NCBI GenBank assembly: GCA_963662715.1
Contig: OY759724.1
Location: 2,074,662 to 2,138,661 of the forward strand
Direction of reading: 5' to 3'
Source: Candidatus Omnitrophota bacterium
GTDB taxonomy: Bacteria; Omnitrophota; Gorgyraeia; Zapsychrales; JANLHA01
Length of the DNA: 64,000 nt
This document shows, in pieces, positions 45,178 through 52,753 of this stretch; the stretch's first letter is position 1; each line of letters opens with the position of its first letter. The notes under the pieces were generated by a model that was not told the DNA's origin, made no database searches, and saw only the letters and a program-made list of their open reading frames with translations. The position numbers were made by a program, and so were the translations under genes.

Positions 45178-46758
45178 ATGGATAAAAAGGATTTAAAAGT
45201 TGATTTGGAAAAACTGATTGCTTTGGGGAAAAAGAAGGGATTCCTGACCTATGACGAGGTCAATTCCACATTATCCGAAAACGTTGATTCCTCCGAAGAC
45301 ATCGATCATGTTTTTGAGATCTTAGACGGGAAGAATATTAAAGTCCTGGAATCGGACGATGACTTTGTCCCCCCGGAAGACGAAGAGGGCGAAACCCGCG
45401 AACAACAACTGAGACGTTTGCGTGAGGAGCAAAACCGGGATGACGATTATGCGGATAAGTTTATCCCCCTGGACGACCCTGTCAAAATGTATCTCAAACA
45501 GATGGGGTCTATCCCTCTGTTAATGCGCGACGAAGAGATTAACCTTGCAAAACGCATTGAGGAAACAGAGCATCGGTTAGCCGAGGCCCTTTTTGTGACC
45601 GCTTTTGCCCGGAAGGAAGCCCTGGATGTCGTGGGCAAGGTCCTTAAAGAGGAGATCAATGTCGAAGATGTCATTAAGGATGAGCTGGAAAGACGTCCGA
45701 AGCTTATCCGTGATCTCAAGAGAATCATGAAGAAGGTGAAGTACTCCCGGATAGGCACCGAGCAGTCGGCCAAGGCGCTGGCGGAATTTAAGTTAACGGC
45801 CTCCTTTAATGAAGATACGATCAATAAGATTGTTGAGATCGTGGAGAGTATTGCCAAGATTGAGAAGGCCCTGAAAGGGAAAAGAAAAAGCGCGAGCGTT
45901 CAGGAATTGAAAGCTCGCAAGAAAAAATTGGAAAAAGAACTGGGCGAGCCGGTCGGCAAGGTTAAAGACCAGTTGAGAGTTATTAAAATCCGGCAGTCAA
46001 AATTCAACAAAGCCAAAAAATTGCTGGTGGAAGCGAATCTGCGGCTGGTTGTCAGTATCGCGAAGAAATACATTAATCGGGGGCTTTCTTTTCTCGACCT
46101 GATACAGGAAGGAAACATGGGGCTGATTCGGGCTGTTGAAAAGTTTGAGTATAAACGGGGATACAAGTTTTCCACCTACGCCACCTGGTGGATTCGTCAG
46201 GCCATTACCAGGTCTATTGCTGATCAGGCCAGAACGATTCGCATCCCGGTGCATATGACGGAAACGATCAATAAAATCATTCGTGTTTCCCGGTTGTTTG
46301 TCCAGGAATACGGCCGTGAGCCGACCGCCCAGGAAATTGCCAAGCAGATGCGTATCCCGGTCAGCAAAGTTAAAGAGATACTGAAAATTTCTCAAGTGCC
46401 CATTTCTCTGCAGACACCCATTGGGGATGAAGGGGATACGAATTTCGGTGATTTTATCGAGGACAAGAAGGCTGTCTCCCCGGCGAATGCAACGCTGCAC
46501 TCCATGCTGAAGGAGGAAATCACGTCTGTTTTGCAAACCCTGGACGAAAGAGAACGCAAAATCCTGGAGCTGCGCTTTGGGATTCATGACGGTACGAGCC
46601 GGACGCTGGAAGAAGTCGGTACGGAATTTAATGTCACGAGGGAAAGGGTCCGGCAAATAGAATCTAAAGCATTGAGAAAATTGCGACATCCCACAAGATC
46701 CCGGAGGATAAAGACTTTTCTTGATATTTCTGCCAAGGAGGCTGAAGGTATCATTTAA
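45178..46758 (+). CDS. rpoD: RNA polymerase sigma factor RpoD (sigma70)
   Basis: Region 2 [16 protein letters not shown]...[10 protein letters not shown], region 4 [17 protein letters not shown]. Confidence 0.95.
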
Positions 46759-46958
46759 AATGATTTTGAATGATGGTTAAGGCCTGCGAGACAGCTTTTT
46801 CTTGTGGGCTTTTTCTCTGTCTGGGGCAACCGTTGTTGGAGGCTGAAGGCGGCTCGTTGCAAAGGCCCGGAGGCCCGCTTTCCGGTTCTCCTCTTTAGAT
46901 GTTGCGCGATTTGTGCTATACTTTCTTTATAATTGCGTAAACTATCAGAATTAATATT

Positions 46959-47876
46959 ATGAAAAAAATTATTATATTTATATTTGTTCTTCTGTTTGTT
47001 GGCCCGCAGTTTTCTTATGCCAAGTCCAGGAAATTGGATGACCAGACGAAAGACCTTTGTAACCAGGTGATGGTGGAGATCTTCAAGGAAATTTATTCCC
47101 TGAAGAACAAACATAAGGAACTGTCCCAGTTCGACAAGAAGGTCCTGCTTAAAAATAAATTAGGTATTTATACCATTGTTTACAAATATAAAGAGGAGCT
47201 GGAATATCCTGACGGGACGATTGAGGTGAAAGTCCCTTATTCTTTTGCCGTGACGATCGACCGTTTAAAGGACGAGACATTCCCGCAAAGGGACGGTTCT
47301 TTTGCCTACAGTTTTCCGGCTTTGAGTCTGAAATTCGCCGGATATCAAAATAAACGTTTGTTAAGGACGCAGTTCAACCTCCTGCCGGTTTTAGGGAAAC
47401 ACGGCAAAGTGCTTAACGACTATCAGCAGCAATTTCTCCCGGTCAGACTGTTCATCAGGACCTCCAAGCAGGAGTACAAGGTCGATGAAACGGTTGACTT
47501 TGCCGTTTTGTTAACGAATGTCAGCAAAGCCAATCTTATCATGAAAAAATTGGATTCGGAAACCCTTCATTTCTCTGTTAACGGTCGTATTTGGGGGGTG
47601 TTCCTTGAAGCGCAGAATAAAAAGACCCCCACTGATCGTGCGGAAGCCGTCAGGCAGCAGCTTGAAGCGAAAAGAGCTGCCCGCAGGAAACAGGCTGAAG
47701 CTAAAAAGGATCCGAACCAGGTCAGTGGTTTGCTGGAATCCGGCGAAGCTTTTATTATTAACCTTCAGGGGACGACGTTTTCTGAACCTCAGGAGGTTGT
47801 TGTGGAAGCCGTGTACCAAATTCCCATCAGAGGCGTATATCCATCTGCCACTTTTAAATTTAAAGTCGTTGAGTAG
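46959..47876 (+). CDS. hypothetical secreted protein (signal peptide), Lys/Gln-rich C-terminal segment
   Basis: ATG with N-terminal signal peptide MKKIIIFIFVLLFVGPQFSYA. No recognisable domain. Confidence 0.6.
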   Translation: MKKIIIFIFVLLFVGPQFSYAKSRKLDDQTKDLCNQVMVEIFKEIYSLKNKHKELSQFDKKVLLKNKLGIYTIVYKYKEELEYPDGTIEVKVPYSFAVTIDRLKDETFPQRDGSFAYSFPALSLKFAGYQNKRLLRTQFNLLPVLGKHGKVLNDYQQQFLPVRLFIRTSKQEYKVDETVDFAVLLTNVSKANLIMKKLDSETLHFSVNGRIWGVFLEAQNKKTPTDRAEAVRQQLEAKRAARRKQAEAKKDPNQVSGLLESGEAFIINLQGTTFSEPQEVVVEAVYQIPIRGVYPSATFKFKVVE

Positions 47877-47976
47877 TCGCTTCGTTTTTTTTCCATTCAG
47901 ATTCCTCTTGTTTTTCATGCTTAAGAGGCTTTTTCTGGAAATGATATAACCTGGCGAGTTTCATGCGTTTATTTTA

Positions 47977-48005
47977 TTGAAAAACCATGTTCGTTATGTT
48001 ATGCT
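47977..48005 (+). promoter_or_regulatory. candidate sigma70 promoter for the tRNA pair
   Basis: TTGAAA at 47977..47982, 17-nt spacer, TATGCT at 48000..48005, about 45 nt upstream of the first tRNA. Confidence 0.4.
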
Positions 48006-48048
48006 GAATAGCAAATTTTGGGATTAAAAGAGGATTTTTGTTTGTCCC

Positions 48049-48122
48049 GGGCCCATAGCTCAGTCGGTCAGAGCAGTTGACTCATAATCAATTGGTCCCA
48101 GGTTCGAGTCCTGGTGGGCCCA
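48049..48122 (+). tRNA. tRNA with CAU anticodon (elongator tRNA-Met or lysidine-modified tRNA-Ile2)
   Basis: Cloverleaf folded by hand: acceptor GGGCCCA/TGGGCCC, D-arm GCTC..GAGC, anticodon stem GTTGA/TCAAT, loop CTCATAA, T-arm CCAGG-TTCGAGT-CCTGG, discriminator A. G1:C72 means it is not an initiator. C4:G69/C5:G68 resemble tRNA-Ile2. Confidence 0.85.
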
Positions 48123-48177
48123 GATAATACTGATATGTTTTGTCGCAAAGCAGGTTGTGCTTCCTTACGAATAAAAT

Positions 48178-48254
48178 GGGCGCATAGCTCAGCCGGTTAG
48201 AGTGCTGCCCTCACATGGCAGAGGTCGAAGGTTCGAGTCCTTCTGTGCCCACCA
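48178..48254 (+). tRNA. tRNA-Val (CAC), CCA encoded
   Basis: Acceptor GGGCGCA/TGTGCCC, anticodon stem CTGCC/GGCAG, loop CTCACAT, T-arm GAAGG-TTCGAGT-CCTTC, discriminator A followed by genomic CCA. Confidence 0.85.
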
Positions 48255-48314
48255 AAATTATATAATCTTTAGTGCAAAGGACAATTCGCTCTACGGGAAA
48301 GAAAGGAATAACGA

Positions 48315-49043
48315 TTGGAACAGATTGATATCAAAGAGCAAATCAGCGAATTATTGAAGCTGCAGCACGTAGATGCGGAAATTTATGATCTTAAAAGACA
48401 GTTAGAGGAAAAGCCGGAATATCTCAAGTCCCTTCAGGAGCAGTTTGAGGCTAAAAAGACCGTTTTTCATCAATTAGAGGAAAAACATAAGGCCGTACAG
48501 CTTGAACGGAAGTCCCAGGAAGGCGACCTGCAGGCGAAAGATGACGCTATCGCCAAGGCGAATATGCAACTGTCACAAATAAAAAACAACAAAGAATATA
48601 CTGCAAAAATTAATGAAATAGAGAGCATTAAAGCGGATAAGTCCATTATCGAAGAGAAGATCATCCTCGCTTACGATGAGGGGGACAAGCTCAAAGACGA
48701 AATAGAAAAAGAAAAAGAACTTGTTCATCAGGAGGAGCAGCGGTATTTGCAGCAGAAAAAGGAAGTGGAGGAGAATATCCGGAGCATTGAGCAGCGGATC
48801 AAGGAATTGCATAAGCAACGCGAGGAATTGATACCCCAAATTAATCCCTCTTTCTTAAGCCGTTATGAACGTATTCTGGTTAATAAAGAAGGGTTGGCTA
48901 TCGTCCCTGTCGAGGGCCAGGCCTGCGGCGGATGTTATATGAACGTGCCTGCCCAGGTGATCAATGAAATAAAGAAATATGAGGAATTGGTTTATTGTGA
49001 GATCTGTGCTCGGATCCTTTATTTAAAAGAAAGAGAATCATAA
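48315..49043 (+). CDS. zinc-ribbon domain protein with long coiled coil (COG1579/DUF164 family)
   Basis: TTG start after AAAGGAA ribosome-binding site. Coiled-coil body. C-terminal C4 ribbon CGGC...CEIC. Confidence 0.7.
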   Translation: MEQIDIKEQISELLKLQHVDAEIYDLKRQLEEKPEYLKSLQEQFEAKKTVFHQLEEKHKAVQLERKSQEGDLQAKDDAIAKANMQLSQIKNNKEYTAKINEIESIKADKSIIEEKIILAYDEGDKLKDEIEKEKELVHQEEQRYLQQKKEVEENIRSIEQRIKELHKQREELIPQINPSFLSRYERILVNKEGLAIVPVEGQACGGCYMNVPAQVINEIKKYEELVYCEICARILYLKERES

Positions 49044-49090
49044 TTATAATAAAGAATGACGACGCGGATTCGGACCATGTCTGAGGAGCT

Positions 49091-49546
49091 ATGAGACTGA
49101 AAATATACTCTGATGGTGCTTGTAGCGGTAATCCCGGCCCCGCAGGTATTGGTGTTGTTATTCACAAAGACGGGGAAGTTGTTAAAGAGATTTCGAAGTA
49201 TATCGGAGAGGCAACGAATAATATTGCAGAGTATACGGCTGTCATTTATGCCGCTCAGGAAGCGCTGATTATGCGGGCCGATGAAGTAGCGCTTTTTACT
49301 GACAGCGAGCTTGTTTATAATCAATTGTCCGGCTATTATAAGGTTAAGGACAGCAAAATCAAGCCGCTTTTTGATCAAATTCAGCATTTAGCTGGGGGGT
49401 TCAAAAAATTTTATATCACGCATGTCCTCAGGGATAAAAACAAGGACGCTGATAAATTAGCACGTAAGGCCATTAAAGACAAGCAGGCCAAGGTGGTTGC
49501 CTCGCGGCCGGTCCAGAATCAGGTGCAGTCTGATTTATGGGCTTAA
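49091..49546 (+). CDS. rnhA: ribonuclease HI family protein
   Basis: IYSDGACSGNPGPAGIGVVI, TNNIAEYTAVI, VALFTDSELV, THVLRDKNKDADKLARKA. The C-terminal 20 aa lie over the predicted 5' part of the RNase P RNA. Confidence 0.85.
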   Translation: MRLKIYSDGACSGNPGPAGIGVVIHKDGEVVKEISKYIGEATNNIAEYTAVIYAAQEALIMRADEVALFTDSELVYNQLSGYYKVKDSKIKPLFDQIQHLAGGFKKFYITHVLRDKNKDADKLARKAIKDKQAKVVASRPVQNQVQSDLWA

Positions 49547-49900
49547 ACAAACCGCGGGGAGGAAAGTCCGGGCTCCAAAGGATATTGTATCCTGGTAACG
49601 CAGGACATCCTGATTTCCGTATCAGGGTAGGATTAGAGCTACAGTGACGATACTCGATCCTTGTTAACAGGGGTCGAGGGTGAAACGAGCAATCTCTACA
49701 AGGAGCAAGGCCAAATAGGGAGAGACACGGTGATAACACCGGGGCGAAGTGATCCGCTTCGCGAAAAGAGCGCAGCTGTTTTCGGTATCTCCGGGTAGGC
49801 TGCAAGAGTCCTTAACGTGAGTTGAGGAGTCAGTGCAATAACCATCCATCTCGCCTGTAAAAAATCGAGATGCACAAAACCCGGCTTATTGGTCTGCTTG
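49480..49900 (+). ncRNA. rnpB: bacterial RNase P RNA (type A-like); 5' boundary uncertain and probably inside the rnhA 3' coding region
   Basis: Universal blocks GAGGAAAGTCCGGGCTCC (49559..49576), AGGGTGAAAC (49677..49686), GGAGCAAGGCCAAATAGGG (49702..49720) and CACAAAACCCGGCTTAT (49873..49889). Candidate P1 is 49480..49490 paired with 49890..49900 (11 bp, one G-U). Confidence 0.8.
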
Positions 49901-50018
49901 AAATATCATTTTTGGGGAATTTTTATGAGTGTTCTGAGAGATGTCGGAATATGGCTTTTCGAAAAGAGAGCGGATTTTTTATTTGTATGAATCATGATTT
50001 AAATGAGGAGGGTTGAAT

Positions 50019-50768
50019 ATGTCAGGTCATTCGAAATGGGCAAGTATTAAACATAAAAAGGCGGCTACTGATGCAAAAAGAGGCGCTGCTTTTACTAAGG
50101 TGACCCGAGAAATTACCGCTGCCGCCAAGGATGGGGGCGGTAATACAGAGACAAATATCAGGCTTCGTGCGGCAATTGCCCGGGCTAAAGAGATTAATAT
50201 GCCTAATACGAATATTGAAAATGCTATAAAGAAGGGGACAGGAGAACTTCCCGGTGTGATCTATGAAAATGTGGTTTTTGATGCCTATGCTCCGGGTGGC
50301 GTGGCGATGCTTATTGAAGGCTTGACGGATAATAAGAACCGGACGACAGCTGAAATCAGAAATATTCTGTCGAAGAAGAACGGCAGTCTGGCCGGAGCCG
50401 GCAGCACGGCCTGGATGTTCACATCAAAGGGTTTTATCTCTATCGAGAAAGACAAAATAGGGGAAGAGGAACTGATGGACATTGTCCTTGAGGCCGGCGC
50501 CGACGATATTGATCCCAAAGGACAATATTATGAAATTGTTTGCGATCCTTCAAACTTGGAAGCAGTCAAGGCCGCCATTCAAGCCAAAAATATTCCCACC
50601 GTAACGGCTGAAGTCACGAAGATTCCTAATTCTTATATCAAGGTCACGGGCAACGAGGCGAAGCAGGTGTTGAGCCTGATGGAAACTTTGGAGGACCACG
50701 AGGATATTCAGGCCGTTCACGCCAATTTTGATATCCCGGATGACGAGATGGAAAAAGCAGCGGAATGA
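50019..50768 (+). CDS. yebC: YebC/PmpR family DNA-binding transcriptional regulator
   Basis: GAGGAGGG ribosome-binding site, ATG at 50019. MSGHSKWASIKHKKA N-terminus. Confidence 0.9.
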   Translation: MSGHSKWASIKHKKAATDAKRGAAFTKVTREITAAAKDGGGNTETNIRLRAAIARAKEINMPNTNIENAIKKGTGELPGVIYENVVFDAYAPGGVAMLIEGLTDNKNRTTAEIRNILSKKNGSLAGAGSTAWMFTSKGFISIEKDKIGEEELMDIVLEAGADDIDPKGQYYEIVCDPSNLEAVKAAIQAKNIPTVTAEVTKIPNSYIKVTGNEAKQVLSLMETLEDHEDIQAVHANFDIPDDEMEKAAE

Positions 50769-50769
50769 T

Positions 50770-51255
50770 ATGAAAATTATTGGTGTTGATCCGGGCTTGC
50801 ATGCCACGGGGTACGGGTTGATTACCGTTGAGTTGAGTCAATCCAGAAATGTTAAGCTCCTTGAAGCCGGGGCTATTGAACCCAAGCCGGATGATTTCCT
50901 GCAAAACAGAATCAATAAAGTCTACGATTGTCTTACGGATATCGTTTCTGAACATCGGCCGACAGTCATGGTTTTGGAGAGGCTTTACTCTCATTACCGG
51001 CATCCGACAACGGCCTGCAAATTGGGACATGTGAGAGGCGTGATCTGCCTCGTCTGCGCCCATCAGCATCTTCAGCTGGTTGAGTACAGCGTAAAACGCA
51101 TCAGGAAAAATGTTGTGGGTGACGGCAACGCGTCAAAACAGCAGACCCGGGAAGTCGTCGCTAACATTCTCCGTATTGATCCCGGACGGCTGACATTGGA
51201 TGCGAGCGATGCTTTGGCGCTGGCCTTGGGGTATGCGTATATGGAACATTATTAG
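50770..51255 (+). CDS. ruvC: crossover junction endodeoxyribonuclease RuvC
   Basis: MKIIGVDPGLHATGYGL. Catalytic acidic residues. Immediately after the yebC stop. Confidence 0.9.
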   Translation: MKIIGVDPGLHATGYGLITVELSQSRNVKLLEAGAIEPKPDDFLQNRINKVYDCLTDIVSEHRPTVMVLERLYSHYRHPTTACKLGHVRGVICLVCAHQHLQLVEYSVKRIRKNVVGDGNASKQQTREVVANILRIDPGRLTLDASDALALALGYAYMEHY

Positions 51256-51293
51256 GCCGATATCTTGTGGAATAAGAATATAAAATATATAAG

Positions 51294-51920
51294 ATGATAA
51301 CGAAGATTTCTGGACAACTGGTTGAAAAAAAAGATAATTCATTGATAATAAAGGTGGGGGGCGTGAGTTATGAAATTTTTGTCCCTTACTCGGTGTTGCA
51401 GAGAGTTTACGAACATGCGGATGAACAGAATCAACTGGAACTGATTACTTATCATTATATTCAGATGGGGACAGGAGCGGGATTCCCTTTTTTGGTTGGG
51501 TTCTTAAATGAGGTTGAAAAGGAATTTTTCCTTCAGTTTATCAAAGTCTCTGGGATCGGTCCCCGGGCCGCTGTCAAGGCTTTAAACAAGCCGATCAGTG
51601 AAATATCGGAAGCCATCGACCGGGGAGACCTACAGTATTTAAAGTCGCTTCCGGGCATTGGGTTCCAGAGGGCGAAAGAGATTGTTGCAAAATTGCAGGG
51701 GAAGGTCGGACGCTATGGGTTAATTCAGGATAAAACCCCGGCGGAGACCGGTTGCCCCATCCCGGATTGGCAGGAAGAAGCTTTGGCTGTCTTAGTTCAG
51801 TTGCAGTATAAAAAGCCGGAAGCGAAGTCTATGATTGATAAAGCTTTAAGACGTTGCCCGCACATCAAGGACACAGAACAACTGATTAATGAAATCTATA
51901 AACAAAGGATGAATGATTGA
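51294..51920 (+). CDS. ruvA: Holliday junction DNA helicase subunit RuvA
   Basis: MITKISGQL N-terminus, HhH motifs LPGIGFQRAKEIV. Confidence 0.9.
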   Translation: MITKISGQLVEKKDNSLIIKVGGVSYEIFVPYSVLQRVYEHADEQNQLELITYHYIQMGTGAGFPFLVGFLNEVEKEFFLQFIKVSGIGPRAAVKALNKPISEISEAIDRGDLQYLKSLPGIGFQRAKEIVAKLQGKVGRYGLIQDKTPAETGCPIPDWQEEALAVLVQLQYKKPEAKSMIDKALRRCPHIKDTEQLINEIYKQRMND

Positions 51921-52753
51921 TGACTCAGTCAGAAAAAGATTTTATTAAGAATATTATTGAAGCGTTGCTGTTTATCAGTGAAAAACCCGTGTCGTTGGAA
52001 CAGATCCGTGCGGTGATGGAAGAGGTGTCGCCCGCGGATATCCGCCGGAAGATTCTGGAATTAAAAGATGAATATGAAAGTGGCATGCGGGGTATCGTGA
52101 TTATGGAGATCGCCGGCGGATATCAAATGTTAAGCAGCCCGCATTATACGGATGCTATCCGTCGGTTCTTTAAAAAAAGAGTTAAAGAGAAATTGTCCAG
52201 ACCCGCTTTGGAGACTTTGGCGATTATTGCTTATAAACAGCCCGTGTCCCGGGCTGATATTGAAGTCATCAGGGGCGTAAATTCGGATGGGGTCGTGGCC
52301 CATCTTCTTAACAAGGGGCTCATTAAGGTTGTGGGGCGCAAAGAACTCCCGGGCAAGCCTTACATCTATGGCACAACAAAACAGTTTCTTGAATATTTTG
52401 GTTTGAAGTCCTTGCGTGACCTGCCTAAACTGGAAGATTTCCCCACGTTATTTGCCAGCAGCGGCGAGACGGGGCATGCGACACCGGAAGAAGGCTCCCG
52501 GGATGTTGAGCCGGATGCTGCTGCCGCACAAGATATCCCTGATGAAGAGGGCGTTGAAGGCCAGGAGGCGGTTGCCTCTGTGGAGGATGTTTCTGAAGGC
52601 GTTTCGGAGGACAAGGAGGAATCCCGGAATTTTGCCTCCCCTGTGCCGGATGCTTCAAGGGAGGAAAGCCAGGAGTCCCTGCCGCTGGAAGGGGTTGAAG
52701 CGAATATGCCTGAGGGTGAACCTGTTATGAGTAACGAAAGAGAACATTTATGA
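51920..52753 (+). CDS. scpB: segregation and condensation protein B with long acidic C-terminal tail
   Basis: ATGA overlap with the ruvA stop. ScpB winged-helix blocks LETLAIIAYKQPVSRADIEVIRGV and LPGKPYIYGTTKQFLEYFGL. About 90 aa of Glu/Asp-rich tail. Confidence 0.85.
   Translation: MTQSEKDFIKNIIEALLFISEKPVSLEQIRAVMEEVSPADIRRKILELKDEYESGMRGIVIMEIAGGYQMLSSPHYTDAIRRFFKKRVKEKLSRPALETLAIIAYKQPVSRADIEVIRGVNSDGVVAHLLNKGLIKVVGRKELPGKPYIYGTTKQFLEYFGLKSLRDLPKLEDFPTLFASSGETGHATPEEGSRDVEPDAAAAQDIPDEEGVEGQEAVASVEDVSEGVSEDKEESRNFASPVPDASREESQESLPLEGVEANMPEGEPVMSNEREHL

What the first reader, a model, noticed from the sequence alone, without database searches (positions are those of the whole stretch)
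49480..49900. RNase P RNA appears to start inside the 3' end of the rnhA coding sequence
The rnhA stop codon (49544..49546) sits only 12 nt before the conserved P4 5' strand GAGGAAAGTCCGGGCTCC (49559). That leaves no room for the P1-P3 elements every RNase P RNA needs. An 11-nt stretch inside rnhA (49480..49490, CAAGCAGGCCA) is complementary, with one G-U, to the sequence right after the 3' P4 strand (49890..49900, TGGTCTGCTTG). This is where P1 should be. A nested candidate P3 (CCTCGCGG...AATCAG/CTGATT...CCGCGGGG, 49500..49557) lies in between. The last 20 aa of RNase H (after ...ADKLARKAIKD) look like read-through of RNA-gene sequence. If so, the ribozyme could be processed out of the rnhA transcript. 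COG1579, rnhA and rnpB are all tightly linked here.
Basis: partly seen in the sequence, partly recalled or inferred. Interest (0 to 1): 0.6.

Follow-up and report, generated by a model that had tools for sequence, protein, structure and literature searches.

The report
RNase P RNA overlaps rnhA gene
The gene for the RNase P ribozyme really does begin 67 bases inside the end of the RNase H protein gene, so one DNA stretch encodes both protein tail and ribozyme stems; this holds across a whole clade of Omnitrophota bacteria and appears unreported.

Summary
Rfam RF00010 (bacterial RNase P RNA class A) matches full length at 49480..49904 (163.7 bits, gathering score 100). The rnhA ORF is 49091..49546, so 67 nt are shared: P1 5' strand, P2 5' strand and most of an enlarged P3.

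In five related genomes P1, P2 and P3 pair in 100% of cells, with 5 compensatory pairs. The shared stretch loses the third-codon-position wobble seen in the RNase H domain. The last about 21 residues have no counterpart in solved RNase H structures, and residues 139-151 are modelled as disordered. The tail is therefore RNA-constrained sequence that happens to be translated.

The arrangement is lineage-wide. In 92 of the 120 closest RnhA clusters the ORF runs further and ends ...GEESPSSxG, the in-frame translation of the catalytic P4 strand GAGGAAAGUCC. The window's clade has a 36-nt in-frame P3 insertion that carries the stop.

No conserved -10 element lies at promoter distance before rnpB. 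The likeliest route is co-transcription with rnhA followed by endonucleolytic 5' processing. That step is inferred, not shown.

I found no prior description in the paper library. I rate it a new variant of known kinds, of moderate-to-good interest.

The parts
48049..48122 (+). tRNA-Met (CAT), first gene of the conserved cluster
   Evidence: Rfam tRNA match at 75.7 bits; ARAGORN. Upstream tRNAs occur at the same relative place in nearly all related loci.
48178..48254 (+). tRNA-Val (CAC)
   Evidence: Rfam tRNA match at 68.9 bits; ARAGORN.
48315..49043 (+). COG1579 / DUF164 zinc-ribbon coiled-coil protein (CdsZ/FlgZ-like), 242 aa
   Evidence: Pfam Zn_ribbon_9 at 1.3e-11 and CT398_CC. NCBIfam CdsZ model at 1.5e-28, below its curated cut-off.
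49022..49050 (+). Sigma-70-like promoter candidate directly upstream of rnhA (TTTAAA-17-TATAAT)
   Evidence: Matches 10 of 12. An 11-of-12 site (TTGAAA-16-TATAAT) sits at the same relative place in the closest relative L164 but is absent in L161. This is a consensus match only.
49091..49546 (+). rnhA, type 1 RNase H, 151 aa. The catalytic domain is about aa 1-130. The tail, aa 131-151, is translated rnpB sequence.
   Evidence: ORF. Pfam RNase_H covers aa 3-128 and RVT_3 covers 7-127. D8, E47, D71 and D121 are invariant in 24 homologs. PDB homologs 3U3G, 3HST and 4E19 align to aa 3-129 or 2-130. The AF2 model has mean pLDDT 91, below 50 for residues 139-151.
49480..49546 (+). 67-nt region shared by the rnhA coding sequence and rnpB (P1 5', P2 5', P3 5' strand and the P3 insertion)
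49480..49904 (+). rnpB, bacterial class A RNase P RNA, 425 nt
   Evidence: RF00010 at 163.7 bits, gathering score 100, E = 5.8e-51, model positions 1-367, not truncated.
49480..49490 (+). P1 5' strand (CAAGCAGGCCA), which is also codons D130(nt 3)-K-Q-A-K(nt 1)
   Evidence: Pairs 11 of 11 with 49890..49900. Four pairs show compensatory double changes in the six-genome clade.
49492..49498 (+). P2 5' strand (GGTGGTT)
   Evidence: Pairs with 49840..49846. All 7 pairs are kept in 6 genomes.
49500..49559 (+). P3, enlarged to a hairpin of about 23 pairs by a 36-nt in-frame insertion (49511..49546)
   Evidence: The CM alignment shows a 36-nt insertion in the P3 loop. The RNAalifold consensus hairpin has 4 compensatory pairs.
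49544..49546 (+). rnhA stop codon TAA. Its T is predicted paired; its last two bases open the internal loop of P3, 12 nt before P4.
   Evidence: TAA or TAG sits at the same alignment column in all six close relatives.
49559..49576 (+). P4 5' strand and catalytic-core consensus GAGGAAAGTCCGGGCTCC. It is in frame 0 with rnhA but lies after the stop.
49840..49846 (+). P2 3' strand (AACCATC)
49874..49888 (+). P4 3' strand consensus ACAAAACCCGGCTTA
49890..49900 (+). P1 3' strand (TGGTCTGCTTG)
49909..49913 (+). T5 run shortly after P1, a possible 3' end or termination signal
   Evidence: Read directly from the sequence. A T-run follows P1 in all six close relatives. Its function was not tested.

Best explanation
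Window 49480..49904 is a genuine class A RNase P RNA gene. Its first 67 nt are at the same time the last 22 codons and the stop codon of a genuine RNase HI gene. These 67 nt comprise the P1 5' strand, the P2 5' strand, the P3 5' strand and a 36-nt P3 insertion. The RNase H fold is complete at about residue 130. The 21-residue tail is not a conserved protein feature. It is RNA-constrained sequence that is translated because no stop codon occurs before the ORF enters rnpB. This is a stable, inherited state of a large Omnitrophota clade. In most members the ORF runs about 70 nt into rnpB, through the catalytic P4 strand, and ends at a UAA, UGA or UAG in the P5/P7 strand (tail ...GEESPSSxG). The window's subclade acquired an in-frame P3 insertion that carries an earlier stop. 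Inferred mechanism: rnhA and rnpB are transcribed together, from the promoter-like site at 49022..49050 and/or from upstream with the tRNAs and COG1579. The ribozyme's 5' end is then made by an endonucleolytic cut in the A/U-rich stretch just before P1. A processed transcript would leave an rnhA mRNA without a stop codon, so one transcript molecule can end up as RnhA template or as ribozyme. Co-transcriptional translation could complete RnhA before the P1 3' strand, about 400 nt downstream, is made. Shown here: both genes, the overlap, the RNA-type constraint, and the lineage-wide distribution. Inferred: co-transcription, processing, and the consequences for translation.
For: Anatomy: full-length RF00010 hit, the ORF and the RNase H domain ending at about aa 128-130. 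AF2 pLDDT falls to a mean of 64 over residues 131-140 and is below 50 for 139-151. RNA constraint: P1, P2 and P3 are 100% paired in 156 cells, with 5 pairs changed on both sides, against 33-57% for slid controls. One K-to-E codon change in P1 is compensated on the distant 3' strand. In the RNase H domain 108 of 129 third codon positions vary. In the first 29 shared nt only 2 of 10 vary (Fisher p = 5e-5). Lineage-wide: 92 of the 120 closest RnhA clusters end in EESP[SG]S, and one reads P4 in another frame as RKVRAP. Codons GAG GAA AGT CCG AGC TCC are identical across six loci, L002, L003, L005, L024, L043 and L077, and nearly so in L167 (TTC for TCC). Of the 58 loci compared (the window, 51 of the 80 species-representative loci and 6 close relatives), 19 overlap by 27-78 nt, 8 by 0-7 nt and 12 leave gaps of 3-14 nt. 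One NJ clade holds all overlaps of +67 to +73, and there are independent cases (L077 Latescibacterota, L011, L036, L041, L012/L023). Processing rather than an own promoter: there is no plus-strand promoter-like site between 49051 and 49480. There is no enrichment of -10-like hexamers at -13..-7 before rnpB in 45 loci. Most loci have no intergenic room. An A/U-rich stretch lies at -13..-4.
Against: No transcript data exist for these uncultured organisms, so co-transcription and the cleavage are unproven. Promoters of Omnitrophota are uncharacterised, so a non-consensus internal promoter cannot be excluded. TGaTAAATT at 49450..49458 is a weak extended -10 candidate. In E. coli (own knowledge) the rnpB 5' end is a primary transcript end. 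CM-predicted 5' ends are uncertain by a few nt, and P1 can be extended outward by 5-7 bp in some loci. Frame 0 at P4 persists through many length changes and is not fully explained by neutrality. Translation of the tail is not demonstrated by proteomics.
Confidence: 0.8

Rival explanations
1. The overlap is real, but rnpB has its own promoter inside the rnhA coding sequence. The two genes would give independent transcripts and the overlap would be mere genome compaction, with no processing link.
For: In E. coli the rnpB 5' end is the transcription start (own knowledge). A weak extended -10-like TGaTAAATT lies at 49450..49458 inside the ADKLA codons. L161 has a 9-of-12 promoter-like site inside rnhA about 120 nt before rnpB.
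Against: The scan finds no plus-strand promoter-like site between 49051 and 49480. The TG of the candidate is a freely varying third codon position in relatives (GCT, GCC, GCA, GCG). Its hexamer ends 21 nt before P1. Across 45 loci there is no enrichment of -10-like hexamers at the position expected for a start at P1.
Confidence: 0.25
2. The C-terminal tail is a selected, functional part of RnhA, for example an RNA-binding or regulatory peptide. The overlap would then be maintained for the protein's sake.
For: Frame 0 at P4 is kept in about 95 of 120 clusters despite many length changes. In the six-genome clade 'DLW[AG]*' is kept with synonymous Leu codons TTA, TTG, CTC and CTG.
Against: There is no third-position excess in the P1-P3 stretch, and no significant excess in the insertion (p = 0.15). 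Model confidence falls after residue 130, and residues 139-151 have pLDDT below 50. Solved homologs end 4-9 residues after the aligned domain. Many orthologs stop before or at P1 with unrelated short tails. P4 is read in a different frame in L011 and P0079. The invariant codons are exactly the universally conserved RNA positions. The fraction reaching P4 is about what 6-7 random codons without a stop would give (inference).
Confidence: 0.07
3. Artefact: an assembly or sequencing error, a gene-caller over-extension, or a decaying rnhA pseudogene creates an apparent overlap.
For: Overlaps between ORFs and structured RNA genes in automatic annotation are usually spurious ORFs (general experience).
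Against: The same ORF length and stop column occur in six independent assemblies. Ninety-two further clusters from many samples read into P4. The catalytic residues are invariant. The domain shows strong purifying selection: 108 of 129 third positions vary against 64 of 258 first and second positions (p = 2e-29). There is simply no in-frame stop before 49544.
Confidence: 0.02
4. The covariance model misplaces the 5' domain, and the functional RNA begins after the rnhA stop with a reduced or absent P1-P3.
For: Omnitrophota RNase P RNAs are divergent, scoring 101-239 bits against about 290-330 for other phyla, and they lack P13/P14.
Against: Only 12 nt lie between the stop and P4, and 8 of them are the P3 3' strand. 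P1, P2 and P3 show compensatory changes, and the slid controls fail. P1 pairs at 8-11 of 11 positions at the CM boundaries in all 53 loci checked.
Confidence: 0.02

Closest known systems
Bacterial RNase P RNA, class A (Rfam RF00010; E. coli M1 RNA type)
   Same: The core is complete: P1-P5, P7-P12, P15-P18, both P4 consensus strands, and covarying P1, P2 and P3. It is a member.
   Different: Its 5' 67 nt lie inside a protein-coding ORF. P3 carries a 36-nt insertion. P13/P14 are absent (a 43-position model skip). There is a large insertion in the P16/P17 region. In E. coli (own knowledge) rnpB is a separate transcription unit.
Type 1 RNase H of the Rv2228c N-domain, 3U3G and Halobacterium RNase HI group
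   Same: The fold and the catalytic D-E-D-D residues match. The best NCBIfam, Pfam and PDB matches cover aa 1-130.
   Different: It carries a 21-residue C-terminal extension whose sequence is dictated by the RNase P RNA stems. Solved homologs end a few residues after the domain.
Conserved gene neighbourhood dnaG-rpoD-tRNA-Met-COG1579 (FlgZ/CdsZ/DUF164)-rnhA, described by Pereira et al. 2011 (PMC3372290). [quoted passage not shown] The DUF34 study (PMC8469502) lists COG1579 and COG0328 among the COGs that co-occur with COG0327.
   Same: The order here is the same: rpoD, a hypothetical gene, tRNA-Met, tRNA-Val, COG1579, rnhA, then rnpB.
   Different: Those papers describe linkage only, not any overlap of rnhA with rnpB or translation of rnpB sequence.
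sRNAs processed from the 3' end or 3' UTR of mRNAs, 'type II', such as CpxQ (own knowledge)
   Same: A stable non-coding RNA is proposed to be released by endonucleolytic cleavage from the 3' part of an mRNA and may begin inside the coding sequence. This is how the locus most likely works.
   Different: The product is the essential housekeeping ribozyme, not a regulator. Processing is not shown here. A cut would remove the stop codon of the mRNA.
Dual-function RNAs (RNAIII/hld, SgrS/SgrT) and overlapping tRNA and protein genes in animal mitochondria (own knowledge)
   Same: The same nucleotides serve both a coding and a structural-RNA role.
   Different: The mature ribozyme would contain only the last 22 codons with no start site, so it is not itself an mRNA. 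This is a chromosomal bacterial locus conserved over deep divergence.

Membership tests
Bacterial RNase P RNA class A (RF00010) | Full-length covariance-model match above the curated gathering score | tested here: met
   163.7 bits against a gathering score of 100, model positions 1-367, not truncated.
Bacterial RNase P RNA class A (RF00010) | Universally conserved P4 strands (GAGGAAAGUCC... and ACAnAACCCGGCUUA) | tested here: met
   Found at 49559..49576 and 49874..49888.
Bacterial RNase P RNA class A (RF00010) | P1, P2 and P3 helices supported by covariation | tested here: met
   26 pairs, 100% paired, 5 with changes on both sides; slid controls give 33-57%. The P3 extension covaries.
Bacterial RNase P RNA class A (RF00010) | Canonical specificity-domain helices P13/P14 (typical of the class, not defining) | tested here: not met
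   A 43-position model skip follows GGGUGAAA in the window and in L005. They are present in L077.
Bacterial RNase P RNA class A (RF00010) | Pre-tRNA 5' cleavage activity with the RnpA protein | not testable with these tools
   Needs biochemistry.
Type 1 RNase H (Pfam PF00075 / PF13456) | Domain match above the curated cut-off | tested here: met
   RNase_H at 60.2 bits (cut-off 25.8) and RVT_3 at 72.5 bits (cut-off 21.6). PDB 3U3G at 4.8e-26.
Type 1 RNase H (Pfam PF00075 / PF13456) | Catalytic carboxylates D-E-D-D | tested here: met
   D8, E47, D71 and D121 are invariant in 24 homologs. Their correspondence to E. coli D10, E48, D70 and D134 is from own knowledge.
mRNA-3'-end-derived processed RNAs (type II) | No promoter of its own; transcribed with the upstream gene | tested here: inconclusive
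   No consensus promoter in 49051..49480. No positional -10 enrichment in 45 loci. Promoters in this phylum are uncharacterised.
mRNA-3'-end-derived processed RNAs (type II) | 5'-monophosphate end made by an endonuclease | not testable with these tools
   Needs dRNA-seq or 5'-RACE. Only an A/U-rich stretch at -13..-4 is seen.
Dual-function (coding plus non-coding) RNA | The mature functional RNA itself carries a complete translatable ORF | tested here: not met
   The mature RNA from 49480 would contain only codons 130-151 of rnhA, with no start codon or ribosome-binding site.
Conserved COG1579-rnhA neighbourhood (Pereira et al. 2011) | Order rpoD ... tRNA-Met - COG1579 - rnhA on one strand | tested here: met
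   The same order is seen in L161-L166, and tRNAs lie upstream in most loci.

The most novel reading that the evidence does not exclude
The overlap is a working switch and not a neutral accident. Each rnhA-rnpB transcript would be either translated to its stop, with ribosomes melting P1-P3 (and P4 in most relatives), or cut at P1 to release the ribozyme. The cut would leave a non-stop rnhA mRNA that is cleared by trans-translation. RNase H output, RNase P RNA maturation and tmRNA load would then be mechanistically coupled. The persistent frame-0 reading of P4 would be kept because it gives the earliest stop.
Probability: 0.15. Interest if true: 0.8.

Novelty: new variant of a known kind. Interest (0 to 1): 0.6.

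Why it matters
RNase P RNA is one of the two universal ribozymes, and its P4 helix is the catalytic core. Here a conserved protein gene reads into the ribozyme: through P1-P3 in this window, and through P4 in most relatives. This state has been stable across a deep bacterial clade and has arisen several times independently.

It gives a natural system for three questions:
- How is a housekeeping ribozyme matured from an mRNA?
- How do translation and RNA folding compete on one transcript?
- What happens to an mRNA whose stop codon is removed by processing?

It also has a practical side. Public protein databases hold many 'ribonuclease HI family' entries, for example MCK4881570.1, whose apparently conserved C-terminal motif GEESPSSxG is an RNA signature rather than a protein motif. 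Annotation pipelines that forbid CDS/ncRNA overlap would wrongly drop or truncate one of two real genes.

Tried and rejected
It is only known as a 3.36-Mb NCBI/ENA contig.
2. The metagenome scan gave few close relatives. L081-L160 are mostly distant and were not used.
3. Internal promoter: the TGaTAAATT candidate was rejected as conserved, because the TG sits at a wobble position. The positional -10 scan was flat.
4. Leader-trailer stem for RNase III-type processing: there is no extension of P1 in the window, and 5-7 bp extensions in only a few loci.
5. Short Logan contigs as possible transcripts: L167-L169 are just fragments whose ends are uninformative.
6. Selection on the reading frame: the P4 frame is roughly uniform in non-overlapping loci. 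Frame-0 persistence inside the big clade could not be separated from shared ancestry.
7. Seven literature searches found the COG1579-rnhA(-rnpB) linkage but no report of the overlap. The library lacks most subscription papers.

Full report
**Observation**

The window sequence and the ORF list show an ORF at 49091..49546 ending in TAA at 49544..49546. The motif GAGGAAAGTCCGGGCTCC starts at 49559, 12 nt later.

A scan of the whole window against Rfam found three matches above the gathering score. Two are tRNAs, at 48049..48122 and 48178..48251. The third is a full-length match to RF00010, bacterial RNase P RNA class A, at 49480..49904 (163.7 bits, gathering score 100, E = 5.8e-51, model positions 1-367, not truncated).

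The covariance-model alignment places the helices as follows:
- P1 5' strand at 49480..49490, paired with 49890..49900.
- P2 5' strand at 49492..49498, paired with 49840..49846.
- P3 at 49500..49508, paired with 49551..49559, with a 36-nt insertion (49511..49546) in its loop.

The overlap is 67 nt.

**The two genes are both real**

The ORF is a type 1 RNase H. Pfam RNase_H covers aa 3-128 and RVT_3 covers aa 7-127. The best NCBIfam match is the RNase H half of the bifunctional RNase H/acid phosphatase, the Rv2228c type.

The solved homologs 3U3G, 3HST and 4E19 align to residues 3-129 (2-130 for 4E19) and end a few residues later. D8, E47, D71 and D121 are invariant in 24 homologs.

An AlphaFold2 model has mean pLDDT 91. 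The last helix spans residues 114-138, confidence drops after about residue 130, and residues 139-151 score below 50. The fold is therefore complete at about residue 130, and the 21-residue tail KQAKVVASRPVQNQVQSDLWA is extra.

**The shared stretch evolves as RNA, not as protein**

Five close relatives with identical synteny were fetched: rpoD, a hypothetical gene, tRNAs, COG1579, rnhA, rnpB, yebC, ruvC, ruvA, scpB. They were aligned with the window.

In the RNase H domain, variable sites fall 39, 25 and 108 of 129 at codon positions 1, 2 and 3. That is a classic coding signature (p = 2e-29). In the first 29 shared nucleotides (P1, P2 and the P3 5' strand) they fall 2, 1 and 2 of 10, 9 and 10. 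The third-position comparison gives Fisher p = 5e-5. In the P3 insertion all positions vary (7, 6 and 10 of 11, 12 and 12; not significant).

For P1, P2 and P3 as placed by the model, all 156 cells form standard pairs. Five pairs have changes on both sides, four of them in P1. Sliding the partners by 1-3 columns gives only 33-57% pairing. For example, the window has CAAGCAGGCCA/TGGTCTGCTTG where four relatives have TGAGCAAGCCA/TGGCTTGCTCA. A Lys-to-Glu codon change in rnhA is thus compensated about 400 nt away.

The P3 insertion forms an extension of the hairpin that also covaries. The stop codon's T is the last predicted pair of that extension, and its other two bases open the internal loop before the P3 3' strand. 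It is at the same column, as TAA or TAG, in all six genomes.

**The window is the mild form of a lineage-wide state**

A search with the RnhA protein returned 3,129 homologs. Of the 120 closest clusters, 92 end in ...EESP[SG]S-x-G. This is the in-frame translation of the P4 strand GAG GAA AGU CCG AGC UCC. Three more are near variants of it. One (P0079) reads the same RNA in another frame, as GRKVRAP. The rest stop earlier, within P1-P3.

The DNA confirms this. L002, L003, L005, L024 and L043 carry GGG GAG GAA AGT CCG AGC TCC nnn GGn followed by TAA, TGA or TAG. The stop falls in the P5/P7 strand. L167 has the same string with TTC in place of TCC.

L077, labelled Latescibacterota, has a canonical 292-bit RNA. 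Its ORF ends at the UAA of the P8 loop GGGUAAC. L011 reads P4 in a different frame.

Of the 80 species-representative loci, 51 have a complete rnpB downstream of rnhA; the window and six close relatives bring the compared set to 58 loci. Overlap was computed from the rnhA stop and the CM start, with these results:
- 19 loci overlap by 27-78 nt, counting the window's clade.
- 8 loci overlap by 0-7 nt, often with the stop codon forming the first bases of P1.
- 12 loci have gaps of 3-14 nt.
- The rest have larger gaps.

P1 pairs at 8-11 of 11 positions at the CM boundaries in all 53 loci checked.

A rough NJ tree of the RNase H domain puts every overlap of +67 to +73 in one clade, which includes the window. 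L077, L011, L036, L041 and L012/L023 are separate events. The window's subclade differs from its sister lineages by the in-frame 36-nt P3 insertion that brings the stop forward. P4 is still in frame 0 there.

**How it most likely works**

Shown here: the two genes, the overlap, the RNA-type constraint, and the distribution across relatives.

Inferred: how the ribozyme is made. The window has a promoter-like site, TTTAAA-17-TATAAT, at 49022..49050 just before rnhA. It has no plus-strand promoter-like site between 49051 and 49480. The closest relative has an 11-of-12 site at the same place, while L161 does not.

Across 45 Omnitrophota loci, -10-like hexamers are not enriched at -13..-7 before the rnpB start. 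Most loci have no intergenic space at all. The bases at -13..-4 are A/U-rich whether they are coding or not.

I therefore favour co-transcription of rnhA and rnpB, followed by an endonucleolytic cut just before P1. This resembles sRNAs released from the 3' ends of mRNAs. A cut would remove the rnhA stop codon, so a processed molecule could not yield released RnhA. Translation that follows the polymerase could finish before the P1 3' strand is made. These consequences are inference only.

**Rivals**

- An internal promoter remains possible (about 0.25). Promoters of this phylum are unknown, and E. coli rnpB starts at its promoter (own knowledge).
- A functional tail is unlikely. There is no coding periodicity, the tail is modelled as disordered, other orthologs lack it or read it in other frames, and its invariant codons coincide with universally conserved RNA positions.
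- Artefact is excluded by six independent assemblies and 92 clusters.
- CM misplacement is excluded by the covariation.

One point stays open. The distance from the ADxL motif to EESP varies from 22 to 46 codons, yet frame 0 is almost always kept. In non-overlapping loci the frame is roughly uniform. I could not separate shared ancestry from weak selection, for example selection for the earliest stop.

**Comparison with what is known**

The linkage of rpoD, tRNA-Met, COG1579 (FlgZ/CdsZ) and rnhA was described by Pereira et al. 2011 (PMC3372290). [quoted passage not shown] The DUF34 study lists COG1579 and COG0328 as frequent neighbours (PMC8469502).

Seven full-text searches found no description of rnhA reading into rnpB. 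The library lacks most subscription journals, so this is absence of evidence. NCBI annotates such proteins at full length as 'ribonuclease HI family protein', for example MCK4881570.1 at 154 aa.

**Verdict**

It is a new variant of known kinds: a CDS-embedded stable RNA, and a dual use of sequence. It involves the catalytic core of a universal ribozyme, is conserved over a deep clade, and is recurrent. The functional meaning is untested. Interest 0.6.

Noticed in passing
window 49680..49690 (junction after GGGTGAAA); L005 about 3050: The RNase P RNA lacks helices P13/P14, shown as a 43-position model skip. The same holds in L005, and L011 is reduced further. Omnitrophota RNAs score only 101-239 bits, against about 290-330 for Nitrospirota, Bacillota and Latescibacterota neighbours.
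   Followed up: partly
window 49733..49769: A large insertion of about 41 nt sits in the P16/P17 region of the RNase P RNA relative to the Rfam consensus. It includes the hairpin CGCTTCGCGAAAAGAGCG, which the terminator scan flagged.
   Followed up: no
P0008-P0120 (protein database); L002, L003, L005, L024, L043, L167: Public protein collections hold many RNase HI entries whose 'conserved' C-terminal motif GEESPSSxG is the translated P4 strand of RNase P RNA. NCBI annotates them at full length, for example MCK4881570.1. This is a trap for protein-family models and motif searches.
   Followed up: yes
L077 2501..3280 (JAAXHW010000038.1, Latescibacterota): An independent case in another phylum, with a canonical 292-bit RNase P RNA. 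rnhA reads 71 nt into rnpB and stops at the UAA of the P8 loop GGGUAAC.
   Followed up: partly
window 45178..52753; L161-L166: Synteny is strictly conserved: rpoD, a 305-307-aa hypothetical protein, tRNA-Met, tRNA-Val, COG1579, rnhA, rnpB, yebC, ruvC, ruvA, scpB. The hypothetical protein at 46959..47876 has no Pfam match.
   Followed up: no
47 loci, positions -13..-4 before the rnpB start (window 49467..49476): An A/U-rich stretch lies immediately before P1 whether the bases are coding or intergenic. Many non-overlapping loci carry CTCTTTTAA, giving protein tails ending [GS][LF]F, right before P1. It may be a cleavage site but is untested.
   Followed up: partly
P0001-P0120 tails; loci: P4 is read in frame 0 in about 95 of the 120 closest homologs, despite ADxL-to-EESP distances of 22-46 codons. 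A tail class ('GQDGRP') reads P1/P2 in a different frame. In non-overlapping loci the frame is roughly uniform. This is unexplained.
   Followed up: partly
window 49909..49913; alignment A2 columns about 508-525: A run of T follows the P1 3' strand within about 10 nt in all six close relatives. The closing helix plus the U-run might mark the 3' end of the transcript.
   Followed up: no
L007, L025, L023, L057, L044: P1 can be extended outward by 5-7 further base pairs beyond the covariance-model ends. The true overlap or gap in these loci may differ by a few nt from the tabulated values.
   Followed up: no
window 49083..49093: The rnhA Shine-Dalgarno-like GAGGAG lies only 2 nt before the ATG, an unusually short spacing. 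This might mean weak translation initiation on a transcript made mainly for the ribozyme.
   Followed up: no
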